From Pseudomonadota bacterium (lineage in GTDB: Bacteria; Bdellovibrionota_B; Oligoflexia; Oligoflexales; CAIYRB01): a DNA stretch of 64,000 nucleotides. This document shows positions 10,909 to 26,928 of the stretch, piece by piece. The stretch lies in the NCBI GenBank assembly GCA_026390435.1, contig JAPLFY010000040.1:40223-104222 (forward strand). The letters run 5' to 3'. The notes under the pieces were generated by a model, which saw nothing but the letters and a program-made list of their open reading frames with translations, did not search any database and was not told where the DNA came from. Within the stretch, counting starts at the first letter, position 1; each line of letters opens with the position of its first letter. Both the position numbers and the translations under genes were made by a program.

Positions 10909-11040
10909 TATTGATGAAATCGCAGGGGGAACATGTTTCCAAGACTGGCTACCGGCAAGACTTGGAAAAACCCTAAAGAATAACAAAAAACCTACCGATA
11001 ACTTGCTCCGACACCTGTTGATCAGGCTAGGAGCATTATC

Positions 11041-11529: not shown

Positions 11530-11650
11530 GGGCCACAGCCAGGTAATCATCTCGTTATTTAATAAATTCAGATGCTTATTGGACGGCAGCTGAGCATCCA
11601 TCTAAAATAAAGCCAAGACTCAACACGTCACAGAGCCGGGGCTTCAGCAT

Positions 11651-13279
11651 ATGGGTGCGCATCTATCTCGTCTATGTTGGTTTGTATTATTCTTGGCCTC
11701 TTTGACGAGCTGCCGCTCCACTGTCAGTAGGCCCCAGGAAGTAGAACTACCTCCTGGAGAACCCATGGCTGACAGCCTACGCTATATTGGCTTTGCCCAA
11801 TCAGCTCCGGGCGCAAACAAGATAGCTACTATTTTGGATTTGGTAAAAATCAAAGCATATCCAAATTCAACTAAATACGCTGGTGTTTTGCGATTAACGC
11901 TAGGCGGATTTGCAGGTCGCGAATATACATCGCTTTATTTTTCCGAAATCTCATTCGACCACCGCACAAAGGCTCTGAAATTTTCCGGCGGTCCGGAGGG
12001 GATCAATATCGCGCCCCAGACATTTTCACCTCAGCTGCTCCAAGCTAAAATCAGCTCATCTGTCGACAAAACAAATCTAGTCTTAGAAATGAAGTCCGAA
12101 TCGGATACATCAGTAGTAACTCTAACTGCAGAAATATTCCCACAGTCTACAGTCATGAGACCTATAACAGGCAACTACAGCGCTAATTGCCCTGGTCAAA
12201 TGACTGCTCTGCAGATTGAGGCCAGCAAATGGCGCAAACCTCCCGGAGGCGGCCCATTCTCGGACATCCGATTAATTGGACGTAGCGGCAAACCAGATGA
12301 AGAACTCTGCGGTAAAAATCAAGTCTGTGTGAAAGAGTCCTTTAGCTCCGGAGCAGTCAATCCCGCCGCAAGCAAAGTAACGCTCAGCAATGCTACGTTC
12401 ACTCGGGGGTGCACCACCAACGGGCAACAGTTGATTTGCGATGGCTGCGTGACGACCTATGATCCAATCTCTCCACATTCATTGATCGATTCCGCGGTGG
12501 CTTATACTAGCCATAAGCGCCCGACCCATTTGCCGAACCCTCAATCTGACGAGGCTAATCCAGGGCTACCGCCGACGGGCGAATATTATGGATTCTTGCA
12601 TCACGAACAGACTAACTCCTTTCAATTAGTCGCCCTAGACCTGAGAACCGAACAGCAAATGCATGCAGCAACTGCGCTGGTTCCCACAGGGGCTCGAATC
12701 GAAGCGATAGGCACTGTCTATTTCGGTGAGGGGGATTCAAATGAATTCATCACCTATCATTTCAAACCAGTCCCTTGGAACTCGCAAAGTCAATTGCCGC
12801 TGGTACTAGATGGTGACTCTGAGGCCCTTGTGGTGATGGATAGTATCCGCAATGGTCGACTAAGCGGCGTCTGGTACGGCAAAACATTCGGCAGAGTTGG
12901 CACTGTGGAGCTGCAAATTAGCAATGTGCCCCCGCTACCAGCAGGCAGTCACCTCATTGAAAAAGTATCTGGGCACTATAAAGGCCAAGACAGCGAGTTT
13001 GAAGTCATCACAACAGCCAACCTCTCCGAAGAGGCCGATGATTTTTATCCATTGAAAGTTGTGGGCTGGGCACGCGACCCCGAGGAAAAATCTAGACGTC
13101 GAAATATCGTCGATGGCAGTTTTGATTTCTACACCAACTCTTACGCATTTCGTCTAGATGACGGGCGCATGTTAGTGGGCAGTAATACGCCCAACGGTCT
13201 AGCACTGCATTGGCCGACTAAGCCTCGGTACGGTGCGCCACTTACTGGCAGCGTACAGCTTTTTAAGCTTTCCCTCTAA
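11651..13279 (+). CDS. large lipoprotein of unknown function
   Basis: Signal peptide with lipobox (FLASLTSC). 542 aa with several Cys pairs and no recognised domain. Confidence 0.6.
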   Translation: MGAHLSRLCWFVLFLASLTSCRSTVSRPQEVELPPGEPMADSLRYIGFAQSAPGANKIATILDLVKIKAYPNSTKYAGVLRLTLGGFAGREYTSLYFSEISFDHRTKALKFSGGPEGINIAPQTFSPQLLQAKISSSVDKTNLVLEMKSESDTSVVTLTAEIFPQSTVMRPITGNYSANCPGQMTALQIEASKWRKPPGGGPFSDIRLIGRSGKPDEELCGKNQVCVKESFSSGAVNPAASKVTLSNATFTRGCTTNGQQLICDGCVTTYDPISPHSLIDSAVAYTSHKRPTHLPNPQSDEANPGLPPTGEYYGFLHHEQTNSFQLVALDLRTEQQMHAATALVPTGARIEAIGTVYFGEGDSNEFITYHFKPVPWNSQSQLPLVLDGDSEALVVMDSIRNGRLSGVWYGKTFGRVGTVELQISNVPPLPAGSHLIEKVSGHYKGQDSEFEVITTANLSEEADDFYPLKVVGWARDPEEKSRRRNIVDGSFDFYTNSYAFRLDDGRMLVGSNTPNGLALHWPTKPRYGAPLTGSVQLFKLSL

Positions 13280-13560
13280 TCAGTCGCCTACTAGTAAAGA
13301 CGATGACTAGATACCGCCGTGCAAGCGCGGCTTGATGGCGATCTGCCCCTCCGACGTTCGAGCGTAACTTCCTGAAGTAGCTTTCGTCGTCAGTGCGGAG
13401 GTTCACATCGCCACCAAACCACACATGCTGTGCGGCTCGAGCCCAGCTAAAAGCAAGACTCGATATATTAAGCGTAACCAAGCCTAGGCTGAGAGTCCAT
13501 ACCTAGATGAGAAAAGAAATGATCTAGAAAGAATGATCGGTAAAGACTCGCTCAAAAAAT

Positions 13561-13887
13561 CTAGGCTGACTTCTTCACTTTGCCCTTAGCTGGCGATTTT
13601 GACGCAGCTACCTTGCTCGCAGCAGGCTTCTGTGACGGAGCCATGTGAGCGCAGCATTGGATATCCCAACCCTTAGCAGATGCAGCTTTGAAGCTGGACG
13701 GGGCATTGAGACGCCATTCTTCACGGGTCGTGAAACGACGTGCAGCATGTTGGCATGTTTCAATAGTCCACCGGCTTTTTTTCTCCTCCTTCCTTAAGTG
13801 TTCGGCTGGAGTTTCGCTCACTGTTTCCGCTACGACCACAGCTGCAGCAGCGGCTTTCTTCTTATTCTCTTTCTCTTTCTCTGCCAT
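13561..13887 (-). CDS. small K/A-rich (histone H1-like tails) protein with a central W..E.C...GW...C.HM motif
   Basis: The ATG at 13887 is preceded by AAGGAGG. The tails are MAEKEKENKKKAAAAA and KPAASKVAASKSPAKGKVKKSA. The core is WTIETCQHAARRFTTREEWRLNAPSSFKAASAKGWDIQCCAHM. Confidence 0.55.
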   Translation of the reverse strand: MAEKEKENKKKAAAAAVVVAETVSETPAEHLRKEEKKSRWTIETCQHAARRFTTREEWRLNAPSSFKAASAKGWDIQCCAHMAPSQKPAASKVAASKSPAKGKVKKSA

Positions 13888-14039
13888 AGTACCTGCCTCC
13901 TTAGCTCCCACCTCAATCGAGTGGGTAGTCAGGTATCGTCGAAGCAAAGGGCGACTTGAGAAAAAAATGCCAGGTTATTCGTAAGGCCACGTAAAATCTT
14001 ATGTTTTTTCGATTCATCAAAAGAATGCAAAGACAGGCA

Positions 14040-14735
14040 CTAGGCAATTAATTCCGCGTCGATGCCAATTCTGACGGCAATAGCCCGCAGTGTGCCGTCC
14101 TTGCGAGCGGCATTAATGACCGCATCAACCTCGGCACAGAGCTGCAACCGATTACGCGGCAAAAACAGCGCGATGTCGTGACGATCTAATTCTCGCCATG
14201 CCGAGAGCGGGTGAGCCCTCAAAAGAATCTTGCCCTCAATGGCATCCGTGACGATGCAGTCAGCACCCGCACCAATTAGATTGGTTAATTGGCGATTATT
14301 ATCAGTTGTGACCACGATGTGGTGAGGAAACTCGTGGCGCACGACGCCCTCGAGATAGCCACCCTTGTTAACACCAATACGCAAACGAGGGTCGTCTATA
14401 GCTGAGCGCAAGTGACTGTCTCGTGGCCCGATCAAAATGGCGCGGTTACGTAGGTATGCCTCAGAGTACAAACCTAAACTTCTCCTGGCGCCAGTCACCG
14501 TGACACCCGAAGCAATCATGTCAAAAGCAGGATCATCCGCCAGACTACTCTGCAGTAGAGCTTCAAAATCTGTCCAAGAAAAACCCATAAACTGCACCCC
14601 GAGGCCCAATTTACCGGCGATCAATTGCGACAATTCGATATCAAATCCGTGATACCCGCTTGTACTTTCACTGCTAAACGGAGGGTAGTCACCACTAGTC
14701 GCAATTCGTAGCATGGGGCCGCGATTTTTTGACAA
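14040..14735 (-). CDS. family-3 solute-binding-protein-like protein (amino-acid-binding / cyclohexadienyl dehydratase-like fold), no signal peptide seen
   Basis: LRIATSGDYPPFS...GFDIELSQLIAGKLG...FDMIASGVTVT matches the SBP_bac_3 pattern. The TTG start has AAGGAG upstream. Confidence 0.6.
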   Translation of the reverse strand: MSKNRGPMLRIATSGDYPPFSSESTSGYHGFDIELSQLIAGKLGLGVQFMGFSWTDFEALLQSSLADDPAFDMIASGVTVTGARRSLGLYSEAYLRNRAILIGPRDSHLRSAIDDPRLRIGVNKGGYLEGVVRHEFPHHIVVTTDNNRQLTNLIGAGADCIVTDAIEGKILLRAHPLSAWRELDRHDIALFLPRNRLQLCAEVDAVINAARKDGTLRAIAVRIGIDAELIA

Positions 14736-14849
14736 AGTAATCTCCTTTGCGAGGCAAGTTTACCCTTAATGGCTGTACTTAAACTAAACTACAACATAAC
14801 AGCTGGTAAAGGACCAGATCACGTCTGAGACCAACCGAAGGACGCACAT

Positions 14850-16052
14850 ATGAATCATGAATTTGATATCACAATCTATGGAGCGACTGGGTTTACCGGC
14901 ACATTAGCCACTCGCTATTTAAGCGACGGCGCCGTGGACCACAACGAGCTGAAGCTGGCAATTGCAGGCCGTAACCAAGAAAAACTATCGGTTTTGGCAG
15001 CATCATGCGCTAAACAGCCGACGGTGATCGTAGCCGCTTCCGACGATATAGACGCAATAGAGGAGATGGTTAGACGGAGCAAAGTCGTGCTGAACTTTGC
15101 CGGCCCATTCGCTTTATATGCCGAACACATCATTGCTGCTTGCGCCCGCCAAGGTCGCACCTATCTAGACATCACTGGTGAGTCACCATTTGTGCGCAAG
15201 ATGCTTACAAAGTACCAAGATGTCGCTGAGGCGTCAGGCGCCAGAGTGATTCCATTTTCTGGCTTCGACTCAGTGCCTGCCGACCTAATGGCACAATTAG
15301 CGCTAGAATTCGCGGCCGCCACACAATTAAATTTAGATCGATTATCTGCCTACTACGAGCTTCAGGGTGGCCTCAACGGCGGCACACTCGCCTCAATACT
15401 TGAAATCTCTAAAGACACCTCGATCCCGACACTATTTGACTCAAAAATGCTCGTATTAGACCCAAGTTGGCCTCCCGTTCCGCCGCAAAAACTAACTCTG
15501 CACTATGAGCCGTACCTTAAATCGTGGAGTGTGCCTTTTGTCATGGCAGCGGTTAATCAAGCTGTGTTTCAACGCTCGCAGTGGCTCCGGCATAGGTTGG
15601 GCCAGCCTGTTACAACGACGCGATATGAGGAACACCAATGCTTTGGCCAAAAGATGAGCGCGTTGAAATGCTTAGCTGCGGCAGCTGCACTCGGCACTTT
15701 GGGCTCGTTAACTACCGGGGCTCTTGGTCGGAAAATCTTGCAAAAAATTGGCCCAAAGCCCGGCGAGGGACCCTCGGCAACAGTCCAGTCTCATGCATGG
15801 TTTCGCGCGCAAATGTTAGGGAGTTTAGATGGTAAGCCGCAAGTGCTCGTTACGATGAGTCGCAAGGGAGATCCCGGCAATGAGATCACGATCACCATGG
15901 CCTGCGAAGCGGCTAAACTAGCCGCTGAGGGTAAGTTCAGCACCAGGTTGTGCGGATTCCTCACTCCGAGTGTCGCCTTCTCCGGCGATCTCAAGAACCG
16001 CCTGGAGAAAGCTGGCTTTCAATTCAGTACTCAATCAATCGGCAAGAAGTGA
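14850..16052 (+). CDS. saccharopine dehydrogenase-like NAD(P)-binding oxidoreductase
   Basis: N-terminal Rossmann motif ITIYGATGFTGTL and an overall length typical of the saccharopine dehydrogenase / trans-acting enoyl reductase family. Confidence 0.65.
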   Translation: MNHEFDITIYGATGFTGTLATRYLSDGAVDHNELKLAIAGRNQEKLSVLAASCAKQPTVIVAASDDIDAIEEMVRRSKVVLNFAGPFALYAEHIIAACARQGRTYLDITGESPFVRKMLTKYQDVAEASGARVIPFSGFDSVPADLMAQLALEFAAATQLNLDRLSAYYELQGGLNGGTLASILEISKDTSIPTLFDSKMLVLDPSWPPVPPQKLTLHYEPYLKSWSVPFVMAAVNQAVFQRSQWLRHRLGQPVTTTRYEEHQCFGQKMSALKCLAAAAALGTLGSLTTGALGRKILQKIGPKPGEGPSATVQSHAWFRAQMLGSLDGKPQVLVTMSRKGDPGNEITITMACEAAKLAAEGKFSTRLCGFLTPSVAFSGDLKNRLEKAGFQFSTQSIGKK

Positions 16053-16699
16053 TATCCACCGGCGTTGACTGGGTACTTAAAGTACTTGGTCATAGGATGG
16101 GACGGCATCGTACACGGCACATGATTCTTCTGTACCAGCGCCAGTACCGCGACATTGCGATGATAGCCACCAATTGGCGCCACTTCTACCGGGACCACAT
16201 CGATGAGGGTCTCGGAGCATTTCTCTAAATAGGTCACGCTGACGTTCAGTTGATTTTCATTAGCGGGTTGCTGAGCGATATCGACAATTTTTGCGGGATA
16301 AAAATCGCCTTGAGCTTCATCTGGTCCGGTAATGATGTCAAAGCTATGAGCCACATCTGTCTGGGCGACATCAAGTGCAGCCTGATCAGTTGCTTCCGGG
16401 CATCGGCAGTCAGGACACTTATGACCGCTCATGATTGCACCTACCGCCACGTGACGCTTGTCCGTGGGATCGCTGGATGGAAGTTCGCGCGTGATCAAAG
16501 CCTCAAAATGCTCCGTGCAACCGACCGCATAGGTCACGTTAACCGGACCGCCGCTACTTGATACGCCTGCTGGATCAATTTTTAAAATACGGCCTAAAAA
16601 TACCTGCATCGGTTGCGACACGACTGCAACAGTCGATGGCTGCGAATCACAGGCATTAAGGGAAAGTGCTAAAAATGCCACCATCAAACTTTTCATCAT
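16031..16699 (-). CDS. lipoprotein, unknown function
   Basis: The ATG at 16699 has AGGAGAG upstream and gives MMKSLMVAFLALSLNAC (lipobox). The 3' end overlaps the convergent gene by 22 nt. Confidence 0.5.
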   Translation of the reverse strand: MMKSLMVAFLALSLNACDSQPSTVAVVSQPMQVFLGRILKIDPAGVSSSGGPVNVTYAVGCTEHFEALITRELPSSDPTDKRHVAVGAIMSGHKCPDCRCPEATDQAALDVAQTDVAHSFDIITGPDEAQGDFYPAKIVDIAQQPANENQLNVSVTYLEKCSETLIDVVPVEVAPIGGYHRNVAVLALVQKNHVPCTMPSHPMTKYFKYPVNAGGYHFLPID

Positions 16700-16750
16700 T
16701 ACTCTCCTGTATTTAAAAAAAAGGAAACGGCTGCTCAACTGTGTAACAAC

Positions 16751-17182
16751 TCATGGACATGCATCAAGAAAGCGCGACGTCACCTTGCCACTACTATCCG
16801 TGATAAAGCAATGCACAACGCCGTAGCCGCCAAATAATGCATGGCAATGGCTCGTCAACGCAGGGTCCGTTACGTTAGCCTTGCAGCTAATTTGGCGTGA
16901 AGTGCCACTACAAGTGTAGCTCGGTGTCTTGCATGGTTGCCCCGGTCCACCAGCCGTCCATTTACCAATCTCAGTATTATTTGGCGTACCGGGCGCATCA
17001 GGATTGCCAGGCACATTTGACACTAAGCAGGAATGTGAGCCATTAGGGTCAATCACTGCTGGGTCCCAACCGTAACCATTCCCGTTGTCGCTGCCATTCG
17101 TGCAGTAAGGGAAGTCGGCAGCCAGCGAGGTAACGGCAAAAAGACAAAAACTAAAGAGTAGCAAATTTTTAATCACACTCAT
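16751..17182 (-). CDS. secreted cysteine-rich small protein
   Basis: Signal peptide MSVIKNLLLFSFCLFAVTSLAA. The mature part is rich in Cys, Gly, Pro and Asn. Confidence 0.5.
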   Translation of the reverse strand: MSVIKNLLLFSFCLFAVTSLAADFPYCTNGSDNGNGYGWDPAVIDPNGSHSCLVSNVPGNPDAPGTPNNTEIGKWTAGGPGQPCKTPSYTCSGTSRQISCKANVTDPALTSHCHALFGGYGVVHCFITDSSGKVTSRFLDACP

Positions 17183-17292
17183 GATGATCATCCTCTCTCA
17201 AAGTTAGAAGAAGCAGAGCTGATGCTAAGCCAACAATAGCTGCGTCAGATCCGACTTTGACTGGGGTTTGCATGATTTGTGCCGAACAGACA

Positions 17293-17323
17293 TGAAAAAG
17301 CCCCGGCTTTATCAGCCAGGGCT
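17293..17323 (-). terminator. Rho-independent terminator downstream of tRNA-fMet
   Basis: On the minus strand, AGCCCTGGCT/AGCCGGGGCT forms a 10-bp stem (one G-U pair) with a 5-nt loop, followed by TTTTT. Confidence 0.7.
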
Positions 17324-17333
17324 TTTCCTATTT

Positions 17334-17410
17334 TGGTAGCGGGGAGCGGATTTGAACCGCTGATCTTCGGGTTATGAGCCCGACGAGATACCAGACTTCT
17401 CCACCCCGCG
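17334..17410 (-). tRNA. initiator tRNA-fMet (CAU)
   Basis: The reverse complement CGCGGGGTGGAG...TCGGGCTCATAACCCGA...GGTTCAAATCC...CCCCGCTACCA folds as a cloverleaf. It has three G-C pairs in the anticodon stem and an unpaired 1:72 position (C:U), both hallmarks of bacterial initiator tRNA. The CCA end is encoded. Confidence 0.93.
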
Positions 17411-17602
17411 GTAGTGTCGTCGTTGGAGACAGGTTATAAGCCCTCGATCCTCAGGCGTCAACAAAATAGCATCAGATTTTCATATCTTCGCTCCGATGGT
17501 CCTAAAGAGAGGCTCTGCCCCCCGATCCTACGAGGATTTTAAGGCCCAAGGGGATTTAGACTTGCGGAAATCCACCCCCTAGATTACCCATTAAGTCCGC
17601 AT

Positions 17603-17692
17603 GGAGAGATGGCCGAGTGGCTGATGGCGCACGCTTGGAAAGCGTGTTTACCCTTAAAAGTAACGTGGGTTCGAATCCCACTCTCTCCGCCA
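17603..17692 (+). tRNA. tRNA-Ser (GGA)
   Basis: GGAGAGATGGCCGAGTGG..., anticodon loop TTGGAAA, long variable arm, GGTTCGAATCC T-loop, and acceptor stem GGAGAGA/TCTCTCC followed by GCCA. Confidence 0.93.
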
Positions 17693-17747
17693 CTACCTCC
17701 CAATAAAATCAATAAATTAAGCAGCATAACCATCGTCTGATACGGAC

Positions 17748-17766
17748 GCGGTAGACGATCTACCGC
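17748..17766. promoter_or_regulatory. inverted repeat upstream of the integrase remnant
   Basis: GCGGTAGA-cga-TCTACCGC forms 8-bp arms. It is nested in a second inverted repeat, ATCGTCT...AGACGAT, 27 nt upstream of the ATG at 17793. Confidence 0.35.
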
Positions 17767-17792
17767 AGTTTCACCGTAAAAGGAGGATAGCG

Positions 17793-18654
17793 ATGGGCTA
17801 TTACATTCGTGCGCTCACGGACAAAAAGAAGTTTCCGAAATGGAAAGTGCCGTTCATCTCGTACAAGAAGGCTGACGCTGAGAACCCGGCTGCCCCCAAA
17901 CCCAAGAAGGAATAGGGACGTACCGAGAGATCGCTGGCGTGCTCTTGGCTTTCTGACACGCATGAAGGTAAACGAAGCGCGAGCTCGGGCCAAGCAACTC
18001 AATAGTCTCTAGCTCATCAAGCGCCAAGAAAAGAAGCTTCGACAACTTCGCCTGGAGGAGCGTGAGACCGGCCGCAAGTACCGGGCCTTTCTTCCCGAGG
18101 AGTTCAAAGAGGAATTTGAGCGGCGATTTCTGCGGCGGCGCGACAGCCAGACCGACGCCAAACTTCGGCGTTTCACCCGCGCCCACACGCTTTGGCGGGC
18201 TGTCCAAAAACTGATCATCCATGTGAAGATCGAACCGTCCGAATGGTTTTGCAACCAGTACCAAATTTACGATTATCTCTACGAAAGTAATTTCAGCCTG
18301 TCATACAACAACAAGTTGCTCACCGTCCTCAACCTGTGGGGATTCTTTATCTGCAAGAAGCTGGATCAGCCGTTTCTACCGGTGGCGAAGCCACGCGGCT
18401 ACGAACGTCAACGATTGGTCGACAACTACTACCAAAACCGCGGCGACAAAAAGCAGGGGTCTGGTCCACTGTCACCGGAAGCTCTGATGACCGCGCAAGG
18501 GAAGATGAAGGTGAAGCAATTCAATTGGCTATTTATCTCGGTGTGGCTTGGTCTTCGTCCGCTTGAGATCGACAACTTACAGAGCGGCGACTTTTGGCGG
18601 GTGGAAACACTGCCGATCGGAACGCAAATCCTTTGGGTATTCCAAACCAAGCTG
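17793..18654 (+). pseudogene. tyrosine recombinase (phage-type integrase) pseudogene: frameshifted, nonsense-interrupted and 3'-truncated
   Basis: AGGAGG is followed by an ATG at 17793 that reads MGYYIRALTDKKKFPKWKVPFISYKK... to a TAG at 17913. The reading continues in the +1 frame (WRALGFLTRMKVNEARARAKQLNSL). An in-frame TAG sits at 18010-18012. The frame then runs LIKRQEKK...FISVWLGLRPLEIDNL (Arg box) and ends without the HxxR/Tyr catalytic half. Confidence 0.65.
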
Positions 18655-18858
18655 ATGCGCGGAAGCCAACTCACCTGCCAGGAGGTCCGCACCGTGCTTA
18701 AGGACTTAGGCTACGAACTGGTTCGCCAGCGCGGCAGCCATGAGCAATGGGTCAAAGACGGCAGAACCTTCACTCTGGCCGCTCATGGCAAAGATGCTCC
18801 GCATTATATCTTGGACGCTCTTCGAAAACTGAGCGAGGAACACCATGAAAAAAAGTAA
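18655..18858 (+). CDS. hicA: HicA mRNA-interferase toxin
   Basis: MRGSQLTCQEVRTVLKDLGYELVRQRGSHEQWVKDGRTFTLAAHGKDAPHYILDALRKL fits the HicA pattern (GSH..., about 67 aa). The ORF-track ORF 18223-18858 runs in frame from the integrase remnant into hicA. Confidence 0.8.
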   Translation: MRGSQLTCQEVRTVLKDLGYELVRQRGSHEQWVKDGRTFTLAAHGKDAPHYILDALRKLSEEHHEKK

Positions 18859-19222
18859 AACTAAGATCACCCGACATGCTGTCGAGGTCCTCGAGTATCA
18901 AGTAAATATAGCTTTTGATGTCCGCGACAAAATTCACGTCGCCAGAATACCAGAGCTGGAGAACTGCCATAGCCACGGCACTACGCCGGAAGAGGCTTTG
19001 GCAAACGCCAAAGAGGCTATCGAGTTATGGCTCGAGACCGCCAAAGAGCAGGGCCTCAATATCCCCGAGCCGGTCAGTCGGCGTCAATTTTCGGGAAAAT
19101 TCGTCCTTAGAACATCGCCAAACCTACATGCCACGTTAGCGCAGGAGGCCGCCCATCACGGCAAGAGCCTTAACGAGATGGCTGTCGAGTTGATCCAAAA
19201 GGGGCTCAAGGGAGTCGGGTAG
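18845..19222 (+). CDS. hicB: HicB antitoxin (HicB N-domain plus C-terminal RHH-like DNA-binding tail)
   Basis: It overlaps hicA by 14 nt. IPELENCHSHGTTPEEALANAKEAIELWLE is the HicB fold motif. The C-terminal FVLRTSPNLHATLAQEAAHHGKSLNEMAVELI is RHH-like. Confidence 0.8.
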   Translation: MKKSKTKITRHAVEVLEYQVNIAFDVRDKIHVARIPELENCHSHGTTPEEALANAKEAIELWLETAKEQGLNIPEPVSRRQFSGKFVLRTSPNLHATLAQEAAHHGKSLNEMAVELIQKGLKGVG

Positions 19223-19365
19223 CGCGTTTTGCTGACGCTTCGTCCTGACGATCATTCGATTACGAGGAAGATAACTTCGAGAGTCGAAGCGACGGCCACA
19301 AGGTGGCTCTTCGCTTGAATATAAATGACTTCGAGAGCAAAGATTTCGGCCGCGAGGGGTGATAG

Positions 19366-19944
19366 GTGTCTAAGATTGACAATCTGTGGCAAAAGTTTAA
19401 GGGCAACGGGAAAGTCTATAATTACACACAGAAGTGGATCTGGGTTGTTGAGACGACGACGAATCATCCAAAGGGTCCGGCGATTGCTCATAAATTGGCA
19501 CCGCGAACCAAGGCGCCAATAAAATTTGATATCGATGGTTTCAAAAGAGTCGATGGCAAGGCCATCGAGGGCCACTCCACTTGGTGGAAAATATGGGGAC
19601 ATTGCACTGCAGATCTGTATGACCATGGAAACGGCGTTCGCGTCGATGTTGTCGTAAAGTTCAAGGTTTCAGAAAATAAGTTTGGATCTGTCGTGTATGA
19701 CGATGCAACAGATTGGGGTGATCCAATCCGTCATATTACAAGAGTAGAAAAGGGAAGGAACGGCAGGATAGCCCGATTTTTTGTCGATGACTATGGTTGG
19801 ATTTCTAGAAAATGCGCCATAGAATTGGTTGCCAAGGCCAAGATCGACAACGCTGTTCTGGTGCAACCAAAGAACGGGGAACCTTATCTCCGTGCCTTGC
19901 CCGACCCTGAGACGGGGAACAACTTTCTCTCGATGGTGACTTAG
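19366..19944 (+). CDS. two-domain protein: unknown N-terminal domain plus a C-terminal DUF3892-like domain
   Basis: The C-terminus IRHITRVEKGRNGRIARFFVDDYGWISRKCAIELVAKAKIDNAVLVQPKNGEPYLRALPDPETGNNFLS matches, from memory, the DUF3892 pattern (I..I...W.s...AI..i..g...V......YLrT..D....NNLL.LP). The start is GTG, with GAGGGG upstream. Confidence 0.55.
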   Translation: MSKIDNLWQKFKGNGKVYNYTQKWIWVVETTTNHPKGPAIAHKLAPRTKAPIKFDIDGFKRVDGKAIEGHSTWWKIWGHCTADLYDHGNGVRVDVVVKFKVSENKFGSVVYDDATDWGDPIRHITRVEKGRNGRIARFFVDDYGWISRKCAIELVAKAKIDNAVLVQPKNGEPYLRALPDPETGNNFLSMVT

Positions 19945-19945
19945 C

Positions 19946-20311
19946 ATGAGGTATTTATTTCGCGCATTGCTCCTGTCTTCATGCGTCGGGATAGGGATTT
20001 GCGGCTACAATGCCTTGCGATTCCGCTATGGAGTCAGTGATTCTGTTGCGCGCACGCTGCTGGCGATTCTTGAAGATACGAGATGGGCCTCTGATTTTTC
20101 AGAGGAAAAATTTTCTGACGTAGTTGTGGGTATGACCAAGAATCAAGTTAGCATGCTACTGGGGAAGCCGTTGCGAGAGACTTGCACGGCCGGCTGCGAG
20201 TGGGTTTACACTTGGCAAGCCGATCCAACGGCGAGCTTTGATTGGCGATCTATTCATTTTGATGACTTGGGTCGTGTCGATTTGAAGCGGCGAGAATTTT
20301 TTATTGATTAG
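19946..20311 (+). CDS. BamE/SmpA_OmlA-like small lipoprotein
   Basis: The start lies 1 nt after the upstream stop. It has the signal/lipobox ALLLSSC and the motif GMTKNQVSMLLGKP...W.Y typical of SmpA/OmlA (BamE-like) domains. Confidence 0.55.
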   Translation: MRYLFRALLLSSCVGIGICGYNALRFRYGVSDSVARTLLAILEDTRWASDFSEEKFSDVVVGMTKNQVSMLLGKPLRETCTAGCEWVYTWQADPTASFDWRSIHFDDLGRVDLKRREFFID

Positions 20312-20370
20312 AACGCGCCTACGCAGCTTTTCTCGGAAAGGTTCCTGCATGTGTTGCGGAACACTCGGGC

Positions 20371-20423
20371 TGCGAGAACATGCGAGAACGTTGTTTTTTG
20401 GTGCGAGAACGAGGGGCGAGAAC
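20371..20423 (+). repeat. four direct copies of (T/G)GCGAGAAC
   Basis: TGCGAGAAC occurs at 20371, 20381 and 20402, and GGCGAGAAC at 20415. All are non-coding and lie just inside the right island end. Confidence 0.6.
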
Positions 20424-20490
20424 AACGAGATGGCGCCATATTTCTAAATCTATTCAGATGGATAGGTCAACTTGCCCAGGCGAGACACTC

Positions 20491-20520
20491 GGTTCGCAAA
20501 ATACCGACTTCTCTCCGCCA
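20491..20520 (+). repeat. candidate attR: degenerate copy of the tRNA-Ser 3' end
   Basis: GGTTCGcAAaaTaCCgACtTCTCTCCGCCA aligns with tRNA positions GGTTCGAATCCCACTCTCTCCGCCA. The last 11 nt are identical. Confidence 0.65.
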
Positions 20521-20619
20521 TCCATATTTCGGCCCGATATCCTTCGGATATCTCCTGGGCCAGATCAAGAGCCTCAACAAATTCATCGAATATCTATGTC
20601 TGCAGGCAACCTTGGGAAG

Positions 20620-22812
20620 CTACTGCTGGCATGTGTAAATTTCGTCTCCCAGCGCTTTCGGACCGAGGTTGGTAATCGGCACATAAACGAGCACCCGATT
20701 GGCTCCAATCTGCCGGCCAGAAAACTCCAGCAAACCTGAGCCATCGGATTTGGGATGAGCAATCTCCGAAGGACTTTCCAAATTAACGAAGTCGACTTTG
20801 CGATTGTCTGCTAACAGGTCGGGAATCTGAATCGGACTGCCTGAAGTATTAACCAACACTAAAGCCTCAGCACTTGGATTTGCCGGATCAACGCGCGAAA
20901 ACGCCATCAAACCTGCTTGCTCCGTCGTCGACCACCTCCAGGAGATGCCGCCGCGGCGCAGCGCGGAACATGACTTCCTCGCCTTTAGAAAACGCCTGGC
21001 AGTCACATAGACGTCATGATCGCGCGCCAAATACGGGTCACTTTGCCAGTCCGACGGGGCTGCAGGCGCCAACGGCCCAATGTGGGCCAGCTGATTAATC
21101 TCTGAAATCGCACTACCCAGTCGGAACATGCCGCCGACAAACATATCCTGCCGGTAGTGAGCATCTGAGTTGGTACCAGGTGCTTGGCTACAAAATTGAT
21201 TCATCGCAGCTTGATCGATCGAGGAGTCGATGCTCCCGCCTACACACTGCCCATTGAATGCTTGCTCCAGACCGTAATAAATCACGGGTATTCCTGGCGC
21301 CACCGCGAGGTAAGATAAGCCCAATCTAGCCTTATCTTGCTGCTGCTCAGTAAGGCGTGCCCAGTCATGAATTTCGAGCACGGTCAAATTTAGTCGCGGA
21401 TCACCCTGGGCTACCAGATCCCGGTAGTAGGTGTCGGTAAGGAAGTAGTTCTCCAAGATACGACTAGATCTAACATTGGTCAGAACATCCCGCGAAATCC
21501 CTGAGTGCGCAAAATCAAATACACCGGACACACCGGGATAGGGTGAGTCAGGATTACTTTGTGCCGTTTCTAAAATGGATTTTCCGAGACGGCCGCTATT
21601 CTGGACTAAGTTTCTCCACGTAGCCGTATTTTGCGCCGAGTTCATCCGCCCTAAATGCTGAGAAATAGATAAAGAATCACCGGCAATTTCCGCTACGACA
21701 TAAAAGTGATTTTTTCCCAATTTGCGCGCGTAGTCTCTAATCTCCGTCGAAAAGTAAGCAGTAAAATCGCTGGTCGTGTGTTTCACCGCATCGAGTCTGA
21801 ATCCATCGACATCCGCAAATGCAATCCAGTACTCCATAATGTTGGTAAAGATTCGTTGGAAATCCGTATTGCGAGTGTCGTAGTCGAGCATCTCAGACGT
21901 AAAGTCACCGAAGACTGTCGTTGCCGCTGCTCCGGCCATTTCTGCATGCGAATTTTCTCCGCAGCGATTGAAGAAGTACTTAAGCTTTAACGGGGGGAAA
22001 AATGACTCTGAGAATGCAAGGTCGACCTGATTTGGCGAAAACGTGGGGGAACCGGATGCATCCGCTCGCGCTAGATCATCGGCACAAGCCGTGTGTTCTG
22101 CGGGCGTATGTTTCCGAACGTACTTTGTAGCGGGATCACACAGGTGATTGACAACGACATCAAGTATGACACGAATTCCCTTGGCGTGAGCCTGACGCAC
22201 TAGTTCCGCTAGATCCTCAGCACTGCCGAAGTTAGGGTCGATTTTAGTTAAATCGGAAACGCAATAGCCGTGATAACTGCCATTGGAATTCTCAAAAATC
22301 GGCGTGACCCAGATTGCTGAAATCCCAAGATCGGCCAGATAATCGAGACGCTTGGTGATTCCCTTTAAGTCGCCACCATGATGATAGGCTTCGATGCCGC
22401 GATTACGACTCAAGCCTTGGTTACGCTGCGCCTCTGAAATTAGACTAAAATTATTACTGCTATCCCCGTCATTAAACCTATCGATCATGATCTCGTAGAT
22501 CGTCTCATCACCCCAAAAATTTGGTGATGGATATCTTGGCTGTCCGTTCTGAGTGAAGGCCAATTCAGCCTCGTGATTTCTTGCCGTCGACCAAGACATC
22601 ACGCTATCGACGCCGACTCGGCTAACATCGGGTAGGGCGGCAACTGCAGAGCCAGCACCAGTCACTCGGCTATCGCGATGCCCTAGCAAAGGAACGTTGG
22701 CTCGGCAATCACATAGGACACCGACTACGCTGAACGCACCAATTATGAGGGTCAACTTACGCAAGAATAGGCAGCTGGTCATAGTCATTCCTAGGCCATT
22801 ATTGGACGTCAT
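20620..22812 (-). CDS. secreted GH13-family alpha-amylase-like glycoside hydrolase (large form)
   Basis: GH13 conserved regions are present: [22 protein letters not shown] and a later HD-type region. An N-terminal hydrophobic signal is present. The start codon is uncertain. Confidence 0.8.
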
Positions 22813-22815
22813 CGA

Positions 22816-24177
22816 TCACTTGCAAGATATCAACGAGGATTTCACGAGAAAAGCAGCTGACCTCGGGCCAACGACAAACCCACCACGCAATTGCTGCTGG
22901 CCCGCACCCCATTCGAGGACTGAAATAGCGCCGTTACTAGCCCTGCCGATCTCTACTTTGAGCTTGGTATCCATATCGACATAACACCCCGGATCAAGCC
23001 CAGGCATATAAGCAAGAGGCACATCGACACTGTTGTTCGCAGAATTTAAGATCACCAAACCAGATTTGTTGCGCTCAATAAATAACATCGTCCGCGCATC
23101 GCACTTGGATGGGCAAACCTCATCTGCATTGCGGACATAAACACCAGTACCAGCAAACTTATTATGGAACCTTACGGCGGTTTCGACAAGAGGCTCCCTG
23201 TAATCGTCACGATAAACAAAGCCAGTCCCTACGCCACGCGCCAAGACGAATGCCGAAGCCAAAAGGGAGTCGCGGAGATCGCCGAAGTTATAGAAGTTGG
23301 AGTCCATCGCCGTATCGTGGTTGCGAGCGAACACAACTTTAGACGCGCCCGGGAGCTCGCCTCGGGAGCCGACGGGATACATGAGACTACGAAGATCACC
23401 CCGGGGGGAAAAGGCAGTGATCATGGTGGAAAGCAAATTGAAATCGGTGACAGGCATATAGTCAGAGTAGAGTGCCGCCTCCTCAATAGAATTAGCAATC
23501 ACCTCTCCGTATGAGTACGTGCTTTTCGGCACAGACCCGAGTATGTCCCCAAAATATTCTGGCTCAATATGTTTAGCTGCATCAAAGCGAAAGCCATCGG
23601 CACCGAGGTCAAGAAGTTTAGCTAAGTACTTTTTCTGCTCGTTTCGTACATAAGTCGACCCAGTATCCAAATCGGGTAGCCCCGAATCCCCGGAGCCACT
23701 GCATAGCCAAAAATTTGTGACCTGGTAGCGGTTATTAAAGTCCTTAATGCAGGAGCGGGCCGCTGCAACATGAAAGTCGCACGCAGAGAACTGCGGGAAA
23801 TCGAGGTTTGGGAAGCCAGCCAAACCCGCATTCGCCATGTGATTGAAGACCACATCAACGATCACCTTCAATCCTTTGGCATGGGCTTCCTGGATCAAAT
23901 GAAGCAGGTCCCCCTCGTTTCCCAGAGGACTGTCGATCACTCTTAGGTCCAGTGGCTGATACCTGGCCCACCACTGGTTAAAATTTATACTCTTTTGCGG
24001 TGGGGACACTTGAATGTGGGAGTAGCCAATGGCAGCTAACTCATCCAACTTTGTCTCGATGTCTACGAAGTGTTCGTTGAACGCTTGGTAGATGACGTCT
24101 GCATTGGCAGAAGGCGCAAAAACTAATGATAGACTGCTCAAGAAAAAGCTTAGGTAGACCACACTTATTCGCCGCAT
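22816..24177 (-). CDS. secreted alpha-amylase (GH13)
   Basis: Signal peptide (VYLSFFLSSLSLVFAPSANA) plus GH13 regions I-IV: DVVFNHM, GFRFDAAKHI, YGEV, FARNHD. Confidence 0.85.
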   Translation of the reverse strand: MRRISVVYLSFFLSSLSLVFAPSANADVIYQAFNEHFVDIETKLDELAAIGYSHIQVSPPQKSINFNQWWARYQPLDLRVIDSPLGNEGDLLHLIQEAHAKGLKVIVDVVFNHMANAGLAGFPNLDFPQFSACDFHVAAARSCIKDFNNRYQVTNFWLCSGSGDSGLPDLDTGSTYVRNEQKKYLAKLLDLGADGFRFDAAKHIEPEYFGDILGSVPKSTYSYGEVIANSIEEAALYSDYMPVTDFNLLSTMITAFSPRGDLRSLMYPVGSRGELPGASKVVFARNHDTAMDSNFYNFGDLRDSLLASAFVLARGVGTGFVYRDDYREPLVETAVRFHNKFAGTGVYVRNADEVCPSKCDARTMLFIERNKSGLVILNSANNSVDVPLAYMPGLDPGCYVDMDTKLKVEIGRASNGAISVLEWGAGQQQLRGGFVVGPRSAAFLVKSSLISCK

Positions 24178-24218
24178 GACAGCCCCGAATAAAAGTCAAA
24201 GTTATAAAATTCGAGGCA

Positions 24219-24236
24219 ATTATTATATAATAATTT
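24219..24236. promoter_or_regulatory. perfect 18-bp AT palindrome upstream of the amylase operon
   Basis: AATTATTATATAATAATT is its own reverse complement. It lies 42-59 nt upstream of the amylase start (24177), in a very AT-rich 118-bp spacer. Confidence 0.4.
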
Positions 24237-24295
24237 ATTAAATTTCAATAACTTTTAATAATCAACAAATATCAACCACTTATATTTAATATTAA

Positions 24296-25330
24296 CTAAG
24301 CGGCCTCATCAATCAAGGCCTTAACTCGATGGTAGGTTTTGAGTCCTAGCCCCTCGTTTTCTTTGATGTCATTTACTATCATGCCCCAAAAAGAACCTGG
24401 GTTTTCCAGGCCCGAGGAAACCGCAGTCTTTGCACCGCGGAATTCATTAAGTAAATTTTCAAGATCCAAAGGCGTCATTGCAATCACATGAACCGTCTCT
24501 TGTATCAACACGATTGCCTCTTCAACGCAGTCGCCAGTTGTAACCATCAGGTCGTCTAGATGAGAGAACAAGAGGCTCTCGAATTGCTCAAGCATTTCGA
24601 TTAATTTTTCATGCTCTGAGAGATACTGCTCGTGAACAGTTGCCTTTGACGCTCCCGCTTTTGAAATATGCGCACCATTCGCAAAGTCTATTCCGATTAA
24701 ACTTGATGCTTTAGTATCCTTAAAAAATTGATCAAATAGACGCAGACAGATTTTTTGTTGAACCGCTATCACCGCCAGACTTTGTTGAACTGCAGAATCA
24801 TTTTTCCGTAACACATGATTTAACTTCTCAAGGTCGTCCAGGGACAAACTTGGCCCCAATAGGCCGCCTTGCACGCTCGGATATGCTCTTGCTATCGCTA
24901 CCGCGTAGAAGTTAATAATAGCAATCACGGCCTCGGAAAGATCTCGGTAGTAGGAGTCGGTGGCCACGGCCTGACTTGTGGGTGTGGGATCGTCCGTATA
25001 GTTTTGCCGCAGCAGCACCGATCGCTCGCCCCCCTGACTCAAGCCCTTCAAGGTATCCCATCGACCGTTCACCCGACCCAGCCAGTCATACGAAGGATGG
25101 AGATCCACCATCCTGTGAAGAGTAGCCTTCCATATCACCAACTGATCATCGAGCAACTGCAAACAAGGTCCGGGTGCTCCTGTGTGAGTCGCCTCAGCGA
25201 TAGTTTGAGTTCCTGCATTATCTTGGTGGGATAAATTTTGCTGGCGTGACCGGATTAAACGGGTAACTACCGGCACAATAAAAGTCACGATAATTGCCAA
25301 AGTGAGAGCACTAATAAAGAGGGCATTCAT
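24296..25330 (-). CDS. membrane-anchored hypothetical protein
   Basis: 344-aa ORF with a single N-terminal TM helix (ALFISALTLAIIVTFIVPVV) and no recognised domain. Confidence 0.55.
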   Translation of the reverse strand: MNALFISALTLAIIVTFIVPVVTRLIRSRQQNLSHQDNAGTQTIAEATHTGAPGPCLQLLDDQLVIWKATLHRMVDLHPSYDWLGRVNGRWDTLKGLSQGGERSVLLRQNYTDDPTPTSQAVATDSYYRDLSEAVIAIINFYAVAIARAYPSVQGGLLGPSLSLDDLEKLNHVLRKNDSAVQQSLAVIAVQQKICLRLFDQFFKDTKASSLIGIDFANGAHISKAGASKATVHEQYLSEHEKLIEMLEQFESLLFSHLDDLMVTTGDCVEEAIVLIQETVHVIAMTPLDLENLLNEFRGAKTAVSSGLENPGSFWGMIVNDIKENEGLGLKTYHRVKALIDEAA

Positions 25331-25389
25331 AAAATCCTCCCCACCTAAGTTAAACGATGCGCTTAGAAGTGAGATCGGTTTCTAAAAAA

Positions 25390-25423
25390 AAATCTTTAGA
25401 TATTTAAAAATATCTAAAGATTT
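25390..25423. promoter_or_regulatory. 34-bp palindrome (16-bp perfect arms) upstream of the 24296-25330 gene
   Basis: AAATCTTTAGATATTT-aa-AAATATCTAAAGATTT lies 60-93 nt upstream of the start codon at 25330. Confidence 0.45.
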
Positions 25424-25470
25424 ATCAATAATTACAGTATCTTTTTAGGGTCGTGCATAGCAAACCCCAG

Positions 25471-25511
25471 AAAAAATCCAGGCCGATCGCAGCACTAGCG
25501 CCGCGATCGGC
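25471..25511 (-). terminator. candidate Rho-independent terminator (minus strand)
   Basis: GCCGATCGC/GCGATCGGC forms a 9-bp stem with a 12-nt loop. On the minus strand it is followed by CTGGATTTTTTCT. Confidence 0.4.
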
Positions 25512-25638
25512 TGTAAAGTCTCTTATTCGCCTTGGAAACAGCTGGGGCCGGAAGCAAAAGGAAGGATTTGGCGACAGAAATAGCAACGATACTGAAGAAA
25601 AACACGTAAAGAGGAGTTGTCGGCGAGTACCCCATCAT
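25495..25638 (-). CDS. possible small hydrophobic protein (47 aa; below the ORF-track size cut-off)
   Basis: My own translation is MMGYSPTTPLYVFFFSIVAISVAKSFLLLPAPAVSKANKRLYSRSRR. It has one TM-like helix and a basic tail, with AAGGA 6 nt upstream of the ATG. A terminator-like hairpin spans the stop codon. Confidence 0.25.
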   Translation of the reverse strand: MMGYSPTTPLYVFFFSIVAISVAKSFLLLPAPAVSKANKRLYSRSRR

Positions 25639-25929
25639 GCTGATTCCTTTCATGACACGTCTGCATAGCCCATTGGCAATGCCTTAAGTCTAATATGGGG
25701 TCTCATTTTGATTTGTCAAAATTGAAAATGAAGAAATATGACTTCGCTTTTAGTGAACTTTGCGGCTGCGCGAAATCCTACAGAGCGGTAGATCAACGGG
25801 ACAAATTCGCTGGCACAGATGGTGCAATGAATTTTCTGTGATGTGTGATCGATCTGGTTGTGGCCTTTGGAAGGCACAACTATCACCAGCCACGTCTCCA
25901 AAACGCGTGGCCGTGATCTGGAGCCTGCC

Positions 25930-26448: not shown

Positions 26449-26478
26449 GCATTTCTTAGCACGAGCACGGGAGATCCC

Positions 26479-26886: not shown

Positions 26887-26928
26887 ATTCGACCTCTACA
26901 TAAAATTTGAGAGCCTGGCGGAGCAAAT

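What the first reader, a model, noticed from the sequence alone, without database searches (positions are those of the whole stretch)
17682..20520. Decayed 2.8-kb integrative islet at tRNA-Ser(GGA) with identifiable attL/attR
The last 11 nt of the tRNA (TCTCTCCGCCA, 17682-17692) recur exactly at 20510-20520. That second copy is embedded in a degenerate copy of the T-arm/acceptor (GGTTCGcAAaaTaCCgACtTCTCTCCGCCA). An exact 11-mer is not expected by chance within a 3-kb span, since 4^11 is about 4 million. The interval starts with an integrase-like gene next to the tRNA and carries a TA module plus two uncharacterised genes. It ends just before the amylase genes. This is the classic footprint of tRNA-targeted site-specific integration. 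With its integrase dead, the element is probably fixed in place.
Basis: partly seen in the sequence, partly recalled or inferred. Interest (0 to 1): 0.7.

Follow-up and report, generated by a model that had tools for sequence, protein, structure and literature searches.

The report
Decayed integrative islet at tRNA-Ser
A 2.8-kb remnant of a small mobile element sits at the end of a serine tRNA gene with both attachment sites still readable and its integrase gene broken; this is an ordinary kind of genome scar, but its integrase family is missed by the Pfam and NCBIfam protein-family libraries.

Summary
tRNA-Ser(GGA) ends at 17692. Its last 11 nt recur exactly at 20510-20520.

- **Integrase remnant:** the gene next to the tRNA (17793-~18654) is the N-terminal 288 of ~383 residues of a compact protein family from Bdellovibrionota/Oligoflexia-type bacteria. 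The family has no Pfam, NCBIfam or PDB-sequence match. A confident structure model matches only tyrosine recombinases. The window copy carries a +1 frameshift and a TAG stop, and it lacks the C-terminal catalytic Arg, His and Tyr. It runs in frame into hicA.
- **Context of homologues:** all nine other copies examined have a tRNA-Ser-type or tmRNA-type 3' terminus about 100 nt upstream of the start codon, followed by a conserved arm.
- **Distal site:** the "degenerate T-arm" at the far repeat is not decay. The same motif, CTCRGTTCG + 14 nt + CTCTCCGCCA, closes other elements of the family. It is preceded by arrays of YGAGAAC repeats, four copies of GCGAGAAC here.
- **Boundaries:** a relative at 93.5% identity is collinear exactly up to the tRNA end. 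It then carries an unrelated 7-kb block and rejoins 34-58 nt past the repeat.

No empty site was found, and composition is unremarkable. This is an ordinary phenomenon, correctly read.

The parts
17603..17692 (+). tRNA-Ser(GGA), the integration target (attB-derived). It is intact.
   Evidence: ARAGORN. Synteny with relative L002 ends exactly at 17692.
17682..17692 (+). attL core, TCTCTCCGCCA. The family-wide core is CTCTCCGCCA, 17683-17692.
   Evidence: Exact repeat. The same 10-mer lies about 100 nt upstream of the integrase homologues in L006 and L007.
17693..17792 (+). P' arm between core and int start. It contains the family-conserved box CATCGTCTGATACGGACGCGGTAGACGAT (17731-17759) and a 7-bp inverted repeat GCGGTAG/CTACCGC.
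   Evidence: Aligned with 8 other family loci. CGTC.GA...GAC..GGT..ACG is invariant in all 9. Fold z = -2.9.
17793..18654 (+). Integrase pseudogene, residues 1-288 of ~383. It has a +1 frameshift (extra base in the TGGGA run at ~17914) and GAG>TAG at 18010-18012. Homology stops after QTK(L).
   Evidence: tblastn of P0002 residues 1-40 and 37-288 gives 73% identity, with nothing beyond residue 288. One search aligns the frameshift and stop region against L001, L014 and L006.
18655..18858 (+). hicA toxin gene (67 codons from ATG 18655), in frame with the integrase remnant. The mechanical ORF is 18223-18858.
   Evidence: PF07927, E = 5.3e-10. The junction was read. The same fusion occurs as a 298-aa ORF in strain L001/P0001, where the Met is Leu.
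18845..19222 (+). hicB antitoxin gene, overlapping hicA by 14 nt.
   Evidence: PF05534, E = 2.1e-13, and PF15919, E = 2.6e-9.
19366..19944 (+). Cargo gene: DUF3892 protein, 192 aa.
   Evidence: PF13031, E = 2.7e-6. A homologue at 49% aa identity is in the related element L014, in inverted orientation.
19946..20311 (+). Cargo gene: small BamE/SmpA-like protein, 121 aa, with a hydrophobic N-terminus.
   Evidence: PF04355, E = 5.6e-7. A homologue at 40-48% is adjacent to the DUF3892 gene in L014.
20372..20423 (+). Four direct GCGAGAAC repeats in the P arm, inferred to be arm-type protein-binding sites.
   Evidence: These are the only four copies in the 64-kb window, all within 52 nt on one strand. 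L014 has 5-6 YGAGAAC repeats at the equivalent position.
20482..20520 (+). attR: P-side core region GAGACACTCGGTTCG + 14 nt, then the 11-nt core (20510-20520).
   Evidence: CTCRGTTCG-N14-CTCTCCGCCA, with identical spacing, closes the elements in L006, L014 and L003.
20521..20578 (.). Host flank (B') with hairpin GATATCC-TTC-GGATATC. Homology with relative L002 resumes within this stretch, at about 20554-20578.

Best explanation
The interval 17693-20520 is the decayed remnant of a small integrative element. The element inserted by tyrosine-recombinase site-specific recombination into the 3' end of tRNA-Ser(GGA).

The element's attP had this layout: a P arm with YGAGAAC repeats, then CTCRGTTCG-N14, then the core CTCTCCGCCA, then a P' arm, then int. 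Recombination within the 10-11-nt core gave two products. attL is the intact tRNA followed by the P' arm and int. attR is the P arm and core followed by the old tRNA flank.

The integrase was then inactivated. Two lesions are shared with a 99.2%-identical strain: a +1 frameshift, and loss of the C-terminal 95 residues at a junction with hicA. One lesion is specific to this genome: a nonsense codon. What survives is a HicAB toxin-antitoxin pair, a DUF3892 gene, a small BamE-like gene, and both att sites.

- **Shown:** the repeat, the gene content, the pseudogene lesions, the conserved att architecture across independent elements, the tyrosine-recombinase fold of the family, its association with tRNA-Ser and tmRNA, and the strain-variable content of the locus with a left boundary at the tRNA end.
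- **Inferred:** the recombination event itself, the role of the GCGAGAAC repeats as arm-type sites, that hicAB lay inside the original element and the junction arose by internal deletion, and that the element can no longer move by itself.
For: - **Repeat:** exact 11-mer at the tRNA end and 2.8 kb downstream. Only 2 of 1000 shuffles reach the alignment score.
- **Integrase remnant:** 72% identical to the full-length 383-aa P0002; tblastn over residues 37-288 gives 73%.
- **Family fold:** the top 50 Foldseek-PDB hits are all tyrosine recombinases, best E = 4.8e-6. R255, K286, R340 and Y373 are invariant and H363 is nearly invariant. The RII-to-H and H-to-Y spacings (23 and 10) match those of Cre as I recall them (Arg292, Trp315, Tyr324; not computed here).
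- **Context:** all nine other loci have a tRNA-Ser-type or tmRNA-type 3' end about 95-115 nt before the int start, followed by a conserved P' box. Real genes are called in three of them: tRNA-Ser(TGA) in L007, tRNA-Ser(CGA) in L013 and tmRNA in L011.
- **Model element:** L006 shows an 8.5-kb element bounded by the same core at both ends. Its attR P-side is almost the same as the window's.
- **Closest analogue:** L014 (integrase 76% identical) has the same attR motif, the YGAGAAC array, and homologues of the DUF3892/BamE-like cargo pair.
- **Boundaries:** relative L002 is collinear to exactly 17692 and again from about 20554-20578, with an unrelated 7-kb block between.
- **Shared lesions:** strain L001 shares the frameshift and the hicA junction but not the TAG.
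Against: - No empty site (tRNA directly followed by 20521 onward) was found. The metagenome pattern scan returned 0 hits, and the single related genome has a different occupant rather than nothing.
- L002 homology resumes 34-58 nt to the right of the repeat, not at it.
- Relative L003 shares attR and 69 nt of the P arm and then diverges. attR and the present cargo therefore need not derive from one insertion.
- GC (0.509 against 0.503) and tetranucleotide distance (90th percentile) are not atypical.
- The integrase family has no significant sequence match to Pfam PF00589 or to PDB recombinases. Recombinase identity rests on the predicted fold, motif inspection and weak PHROG hits.
Confidence: 0.88

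Rival explanations
1. Mosaic hot-spot model. The distal repeat (20452-20520) is a relic attR of an older insertion that predates the present strains. The content to its left is what remains after several successive integrations at the same tRNA and internal deletions. The 2.8 kb would then not be one element.
For: - L003 (96-99% identical flanks) shares 20452-20520 and then diverges, with different arm repeats.
- L007, L006 and L011 show tandem arrays at one tRNA or tmRNA, including an int-less 1-kb TA islet.
- The int-hicA junction is abrupt.
- The DUF3892/BamE-like pair is inverted in L014 relative to the window.
- L002 has a remnant of a different, classical integrase next to the same tRNA.
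Against: - The window's P arm (GCGAGAAC x4), attR motif, cargo pair and integrase all have their closest counterparts together in a single element, L014. This fits one element with an internal rearrangement.
- No additional core copy lies between 17693 and 20509.
Confidence: 0.3
2. The islet is not fixed. It is an integrase-less cis-mobilisable element (CIME-like) that can still be excised and reintegrated by an intact integrase of the same family encoded elsewhere in the genome.
For: - Core, P-side motif, four arm repeats and the P' box are all intact.
- Genomes often carry several family members. L011 has two within 10 kb.
- Int-less modules bracketed by core copies exist, as in L007.
Against: - No second family member exists in the 64-kb window.
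- All six near-identical contigs recovered show the islet at the same place (L001, L016-L019).
- Family members differ in arm repeats, so cross-recognition is uncertain.
- The rest of the genome could not be searched.
Confidence: 0.15
3. The 11-mer is a coincidence, and the region is simply strain-variable DNA next to a tRNA with an unrelated pseudogene.
For: - The alignment score of 26 is nearly matched by a chance hit of 25 elsewhere in the window.
- Many 10-22-nt chance repeats exist in the 4.5 kb.
- Composition is not atypical.
Against: - The sequence around the distal copy matches the attR of independent elements with the same 14-nt spacing.
- The arm repeats are conserved.
- The sequence after the tRNA matches the P' arm of eight other family loci.
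Confidence: 0.02

Closest known systems
tRNA/tmRNA-targeted genomic islands with tyrosine integrases (P4-type integrase islands, lambda-like attP with arm-type sites)
   Same: Insertion is at the 3' end of a tRNA, and the tRNA is reconstituted at attL. A short direct repeat of the tRNA 3' end lies at the far boundary, and int lies next to attL. Repeated arm-type motifs sit in the P arm. Tandem accretion at one tRNA occurs, and the cargo is toxin-antitoxin, defence or resistance genes.
   Different: The integrase belongs to a compact clade: 597 clusters at 50% identity among 1.84 billion representatives. Pfam PF00589, NCBIfam and PDB-sequence profiles do not recognise it. It has Y-G-G-R where the HxxR motif normally sits, a short catalytic domain of about 130 aa, and no hits in the phage or plasmid collections. 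The identity segment is only 10-11 nt.
Cis-mobilisable elements (CIMEs) and decayed integrative-element remnants
   Same: att sites flank cargo without a working integrase. Related elements sit in tandem at the same target (L007, L011).
   Different: No evidence of mobilisation exists here, and an integrase pseudogene is still recognisable.
HicAB type II toxin-antitoxin modules on mobile elements
   Same: hicA is followed by an overlapping hicB with an RHH C-terminus. It sits on an island, where such modules are thought to favour retention.
   Different: hicA is joined in frame to the integrase remnant. In the sister strain its Met start is Leu, so it may be translated only as a fusion. It has no upstream region of its own.

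Membership tests
tRNA-integrated genomic island (tyrosine-integrase type) | Lies immediately 3' of an intact tRNA gene. | tested here: met
   The tRNA-Ser(GGA) ends at 17692 and the element sequence starts at 17693.
tRNA-integrated genomic island (tyrosine-integrase type) | A direct repeat of the tRNA 3' end marks the distal boundary. | tested here: met
   There is an exact 11-mer at 20510-20520. Its flank matches the attR of other family elements.
tRNA-integrated genomic island (tyrosine-integrase type) | An integrase gene is adjacent to an att site. | tested here: met
   A pseudogene at 17793-18654 lies 100 nt from the core.
tRNA-integrated genomic island (tyrosine-integrase type) | Presence/absence polymorphism in relatives, with break-points at the repeats (empty site). 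| tested here: inconclusive
   The left break-point is exact in L002. The right one is 34-58 nt beyond the repeat. L002 has another occupant, not an empty site. The empty-site pattern scan of metagenomes returned 0 hits.
tRNA-integrated genomic island (tyrosine-integrase type) | Excision to a circular form with attP, and restoration of attB. | not testable with these tools
   This needs PCR or read-level data.
Tyrosine recombinase superfamily (for the integrase family) | Significant match to the catalytic-domain sequence model (Pfam PF00589). | tested here: not met
   Five full-length members gave no Pfam hit above noise. A profile search of PDB sequences gave none either. There are only weak PHROG integrase hits, phrog_1 at E = 1.7e-4.
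Tyrosine recombinase superfamily (for the integrase family) | Two-domain tyrosine-recombinase fold. | tested here: met
   The AF2 model has pLDDT 84.5. The top 50 Foldseek-PDB hits are all Cre, XerH, Tn1549 Int, IntI, XerA or lambda Int, at probability 0.98-1.00. TM-scores are low (~0.3), which I attribute to the relative orientation of the two domains (not measured).
Tyrosine recombinase superfamily (for the integrase family) | Catalytic R...K...HxxR...H/W...Y residues. | tested here: inconclusive
   R255, K286, R340 and Y373 are invariant and H363 is nearly invariant. RII-H-Y spacing is 23 and 10. Tyr337 replaces the His of HxxR. Assignment is by inspection only. The window copy retains only RI and K.
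HicAB type II toxin-antitoxin | HicA domain followed by HicB with a DNA-binding C-terminus, as an operon. | tested here: met
   PF07927 at E = 5.3e-10. PF05534 at E = 2.1e-13, PF15919 at E = 2.6e-9, and weak RHH hits. The genes overlap by 14 nt.
Cis-mobilisable element (CIME) | Mobilisation in trans by an integrase of a related element. | not testable with these tools
   The att sites look intact, but the rest of the genome and any excision products are unavailable.

The most novel reading that the evidence does not exclude
The integrase belongs to a so-far undescribed, lineage-restricted clade of tyrosine recombinases in Bdellovibrionota/Oligoflexia-type bacteria. Its features are:
- length of about 383 aa;
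- YGGR in place of HxxR;
- invisible to Pfam and NCBIfam.

The clade targets the 3' ends of tRNA-Ser and tmRNA with a stereotyped attP. That attP consists of a YGAGAAC arm array, CTCRGTTCG-N14-core, and the P' box CGTCYGAT...GGACG.GGTRGACGA.

The clade builds tandem arrays of small islands carrying toxin-antitoxin, defence (SIR2-HerA, TIR, DarTG, NTase-HEPN) and mercury or arsenic resistance cargo. The window holds a decayed member whose att architecture allows the attP to be reconstructed.
Probability: 0.45. Interest if true: 0.45.

Novelty: new member of a known kind. Interest (0 to 1): 0.3.

Why it matters
For this genome the result is modest. It explains a strain-variable 2.8-kb patch, a pseudogene and a retained HicAB module. 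It also marks tRNA-Ser(GGA) as an integration hot spot occupied differently in at least three close relatives.

The wider value lies in the integrase family. The Pfam and NCBIfam models do not detect it, so islands it builds may be missed by island-finding methods that depend on recognising an integrase gene. Those islands carry defence and resistance cargo at tRNA-Ser and tmRNA in predatory-bacteria-type lineages. The conserved att architecture recovered here gives a DNA signature for delimiting them.

Tried and rejected
- **Empty-site search.** The pattern CCCACTCTCTCCGCCA-N{30,60}-CAAATTCATCGA gave 0 hits in metagenome contigs. The genome scan with the upstream 400-aa protein returned only one relative, and that one has another occupant.
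- **Exact-protein look-up of the amylase.** It is not on record.
- **Sequence-level recombinase tests.** Pfam, NCBIfam and a profile search of PDB sequences found no recombinase. The only hits above threshold were noise, to complex I NUCM.
- **Mobile-element collections.** IMG/VR scan with the family alignment gave no relatives. tblastn against phage and plasmid collections gave no match.
- **Composition.** GC and tetranucleotide distance do not set the islet apart. This neither supports nor refutes the reading.
- **attR-like repeat for the 7-kb block in L002.** Nothing above chance was found.
- **Second family integrase or island at tRNA-Ser(CGA), 30190-30279.** There is none; the suf operon follows that tRNA.
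- **Intact version of this element.** Exact look-ups of HicB and the DUF3892 protein returned only near-identical copies of the same decayed islet.
- **Literature.** One search found no description of this integrase family. One search is not exhaustive.
Full report
**Observation.** ARAGORN finds tRNA-Ser(GGA) at 17603-17692. Its last 11 nt, TCTCTCCGCCA, occur exactly twice in the window, at 17682-17692 and 20510-20520 on the same strand. A one-mismatch copy is the end of the other tRNA-Ser, the CGA isoacceptor at 30190-30279. The second copy is preceded by GGTTCGCAAAATACCGACT, which aligns with three gaps to the T-arm.

On its own this is only moderately significant. The local alignment scores 26, and 2 of 1000 shuffles of the 3-kb interval reach that. 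An unrelated site elsewhere in the window scores 25. The 4.5 kb also contains dozens of chance repeats of 10-22 nt. The case therefore had to be made from other evidence.

**Gene content**.
- A broken integrase-like reading frame runs from 17793 to about 18654.
- hicA is at 18655-18858 (PF07927, E = 5.3e-10).
- hicB is at 18845-19222 (PF05534, E = 2.1e-13).
- A DUF3892 protein is at 19366-19944.
- A small BamE-like protein is at 19946-20311.
- Two alpha-amylase genes follow on the minus strand from 20620.

**The integrase-like gene.** A reconstruction of its 290 residues finds a family of proteins of about 383 aa. The best full-length hit, P0002, is 72% identical and comes from an Oligoflexia MAG. 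Others are labelled Bdellovibrionales, Bdellovibrionaceae or Deltaproteobacteria, and one is named "site-specific integrase" by its source.

The family has no Pfam or NCBIfam match and no match to PDB sequences with a 34-member profile. A profile search of 1.84 billion representatives returns only 597 clusters. It is therefore a compact clade that does not run into the canonical integrases.

An AlphaFold model of P0002 built from the family alignment has mean pLDDT 84.5. Its top 50 Foldseek hits in the PDB are all tyrosine recombinases: Cre, XerH, Tn1549 Int, IntI, XerA and lambda Int. The best E-value is 4.8e-6 and probability is 0.98-1.00. TM-scores are low, about 0.3. I attribute that to the relative orientation of the two domains, but it was not measured. 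PHROGs gives weak integrase hits.

R255, K286, R340 and Y373 are invariant and H363 is nearly invariant. The RII-to-H and H-to-Y spacings of 23 and 10 match those of Cre as I recall its numbering (Arg292, Trp315, Tyr324). That comparison is from memory, not computed here. Tyr337 stands where the His of HxxR normally sits. These assignments are by inspection.

**How the window copy is broken.**
- It has an extra base in a TGGGA run. Intact homologues read GARTGGGAT, the sister strain reads GAATGGGGAC, and the window reads GAATAGGGAC.
- It has a GAG>TAG change at 18010-18012 that is absent from the sister strain.
- Its homology stops at residue 288, after QTK. It therefore lacks RII, His and the Tyr nucleophile.
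- It continues in frame into hicA.

A contig from another sample, L001, is 99.2% identical without gaps. It shares the frameshift and the hicA junction. Those lesions are therefore older than the nonsense codon.

**Context of homologues.**
- In L007 (P0007, 64% identity), tRNA-Ser(TGA) is followed by a 1-kb toxin-antitoxin islet without an integrase. A second copy of CTCTCCGCCA follows, and the integrase starts 95 nt later.
- In L013 (P0009), tRNA-Ser(CGA) ends about 100 nt before the integrase.
- In L011 (P0070), a tmRNA gene ends 115 nt before one family integrase. tmRNA 3'-end repeats recur downstream, and a second family integrase lies 8 kb further on.
- L015 and L008 have tmRNA-type termini (…CCTCCACCA) at the same place.
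- In L006 (P0002), CTCTCCGCCA lies 100 nt upstream of the integrase and again 8.5 kb downstream. These two copies bracket an element with a 1255-aa protein and an M78-peptidase/HTH pair.
- All nine loci share a conserved box between core and start codon, CGTC.GA...GAC..GGT..ACG. In the window it is at 17731-17759.

**The distal site.**
- The window's attR reads GAGACACTCGGTTCG-CAAAATACCGACTT-CTCTCCGCCA.
- L014's element has an integrase 76% identical, itself frameshifted. It ends with GAGACACTCAGTTCG-AAGAATCGACACCT-CTCTCCGCCA.
- L006's element ends with CTCGGTTCG-AAGAAGGACGGCTT-CTCTCCGCCA.
- L003 has the window's version with two substitutions.

The spacing is 14 nt in every case. The "degenerate T-arm" is therefore a conserved part of the element family's own attachment site, not a decayed host tRNA.

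Upstream of it the window has four GCGAGAAC repeats at 20372-20423. These are the only four copies in 64 kb. L014 has five or six YGAGAAC repeats at the equivalent place. I interpret them as arm-type binding sites. This is an inference.

L014 also carries homologues of the window's DUF3892 and BamE-like genes (40-49% aa identity), in inverted orientation.

**Comparison with relatives.**

*L002.* The only related genome in the species-representative collection is MAG Loclat_bin-10810. It is 93.5% identical over window 4838-17692. That alignment ends on the last base of the tRNA. It aligns again from 20578, and by eye from about 20554.

Between those points it has 7 kb of unrelated genes: an oxidoreductase, an AMP-dependent ligase, an epimerase and an FAD oxidase. 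No tRNA-end repeat is detectable there. Next to the tRNA it does have a ~45-aa remnant of the C-terminus of a classical integrase. This is not an empty site but a differently occupied one.

*L003.* This metagenome contig is collinear from the amylase side through attR to 20452. It then diverges for its last 96 nt.

*Other evidence.* A pattern scan for the predicted empty junction found nothing. Six further near-identical contigs all show the same islet. GC content (0.509 against 0.503) and tetranucleotide distance (90th percentile) are unremarkable.

**Interpretation.** An integrative element inserted in the 3' end of tRNA-Ser(GGA) and has since decayed. Its attL is 17682-17692 plus the P' arm, and its attR is the P arm plus 20510-20520. 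I put this at about 0.88.

What remains open is whether the 2.8 kb derives from one element with an internal deletion joining int to hicA, or from successive elements at a hot spot. L003 and the tandem arrays elsewhere keep the second option alive, at about 0.3 as a modification of the main model.

"Fixed in place" is also not proven. The att sites look intact, and a paralogous integrase elsewhere in the genome could act in trans (about 0.15).

In both the window and L007, a toxin-antitoxin pair is what survives in the decayed islets. This fits the established idea that such modules favour retention of the DNA that carries them. That idea was not tested here.

**Novelty.** tRNA-targeted islands and their decayed remnants are textbook, so the finding itself is ordinary. 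The mildly new element is the integrase clade: absent from Pfam and NCBIfam, absent from the phage, plasmid and IMG/VR collections, and restricted to Bdellovibrionota-type genomes. It targets tRNA-Ser and tmRNA and has a stereotyped attP. Elsewhere it carries defence and resistance cargo: SIR2-HerA, TIR, DarT-Macro, NTase-HEPN and mer genes. One literature search found no description of it, which is not exhaustive.

Noticed in passing
L002:12930-13066 (minus strand): In the 93.5%-identical relative, a ~45-aa remnant lies directly next to the same tRNA-Ser(GGA). It reads ...YNPRGYSHLSPDHLTEATELM... and looks like the C-terminus of a classical tyrosine integrase. A different element has used the same hot spot.
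   Followed up: partly
window 17647-17665 vs L002:12822-12840: The variable-arm loop of tRNA-Ser(GGA) differs (CCTTAAAA against TGTAACAG), and one D-loop base also differs. The rest of the tRNA is identical. This divergence is unusually concentrated for a tRNA between genomes 93.5% identical.
   Followed up: no
window 24119-25489: This is a low-GC stretch (0.40-0.46) holding a 344-aa ORF (24296-25330, minus strand) with no Pfam match. In relative L003 it is replaced by about 315 nt. L003 also has a ~307-nt insertion at window ~26804. Both are further strain-variable spots.
   Followed up: partly
window 20452-32417 vs L003: Identity to L003 is 99.4% at 26803-32417 but only 95.8% at 20452-24119, next to the islet. 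This suggests a recombination tract or a different history near the hot spot.
   Followed up: no
window 20474-20480 and 20554-20560: A 7-nt inverted repeat GCCCAGG/CCTGGGC brackets attR and the 33-nt hairpin-containing flank. Homology with L002 resumes at the right arm.
   Followed up: no
window 20431-20445: GGCGCCATATTTC resembles the core plus flank CCGCCATCCATATTTC (20515-20530) apart from a 4-nt gap. It may be a second relic att site or chance.
   Followed up: no
L007:8748-10001: A 1-kb toxin-antitoxin islet without an integrase (100-aa and 116-aa CopG-like genes) lies between tRNA-Ser(TGA) and a second core copy that precedes an intact family integrase. It looks like a further-decayed element in a tandem array.
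   Followed up: partly
L011:886-19100; L008:10001-12737; L013:7184-9243: Islands with this integrase family carry varied cargo. One has a mer operon. Another has RmuC, SIR2-HerA, TIR and an M41 peptidase, in tandem at a tmRNA gene. Others have DarT-Macro or NTase-HEPN.
   Followed up: partly
window 18643-18660 vs P0001: The only in-frame ATG that could start hicA on its own (18655) is Leu in the 99.2%-identical strain (…FLTKLLRGSQ…). There, a 298-aa integrase-N::HicA fusion ORF is open. HicA may therefore be made as a fusion protein.
   Followed up: partly
window 30190-37707: The second tRNA-Ser (CGA), whose 3' end differs from the core by one base, is followed directly by the suf/nifU iron-sulfur cluster operon and has no island.
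   Followed up: yes
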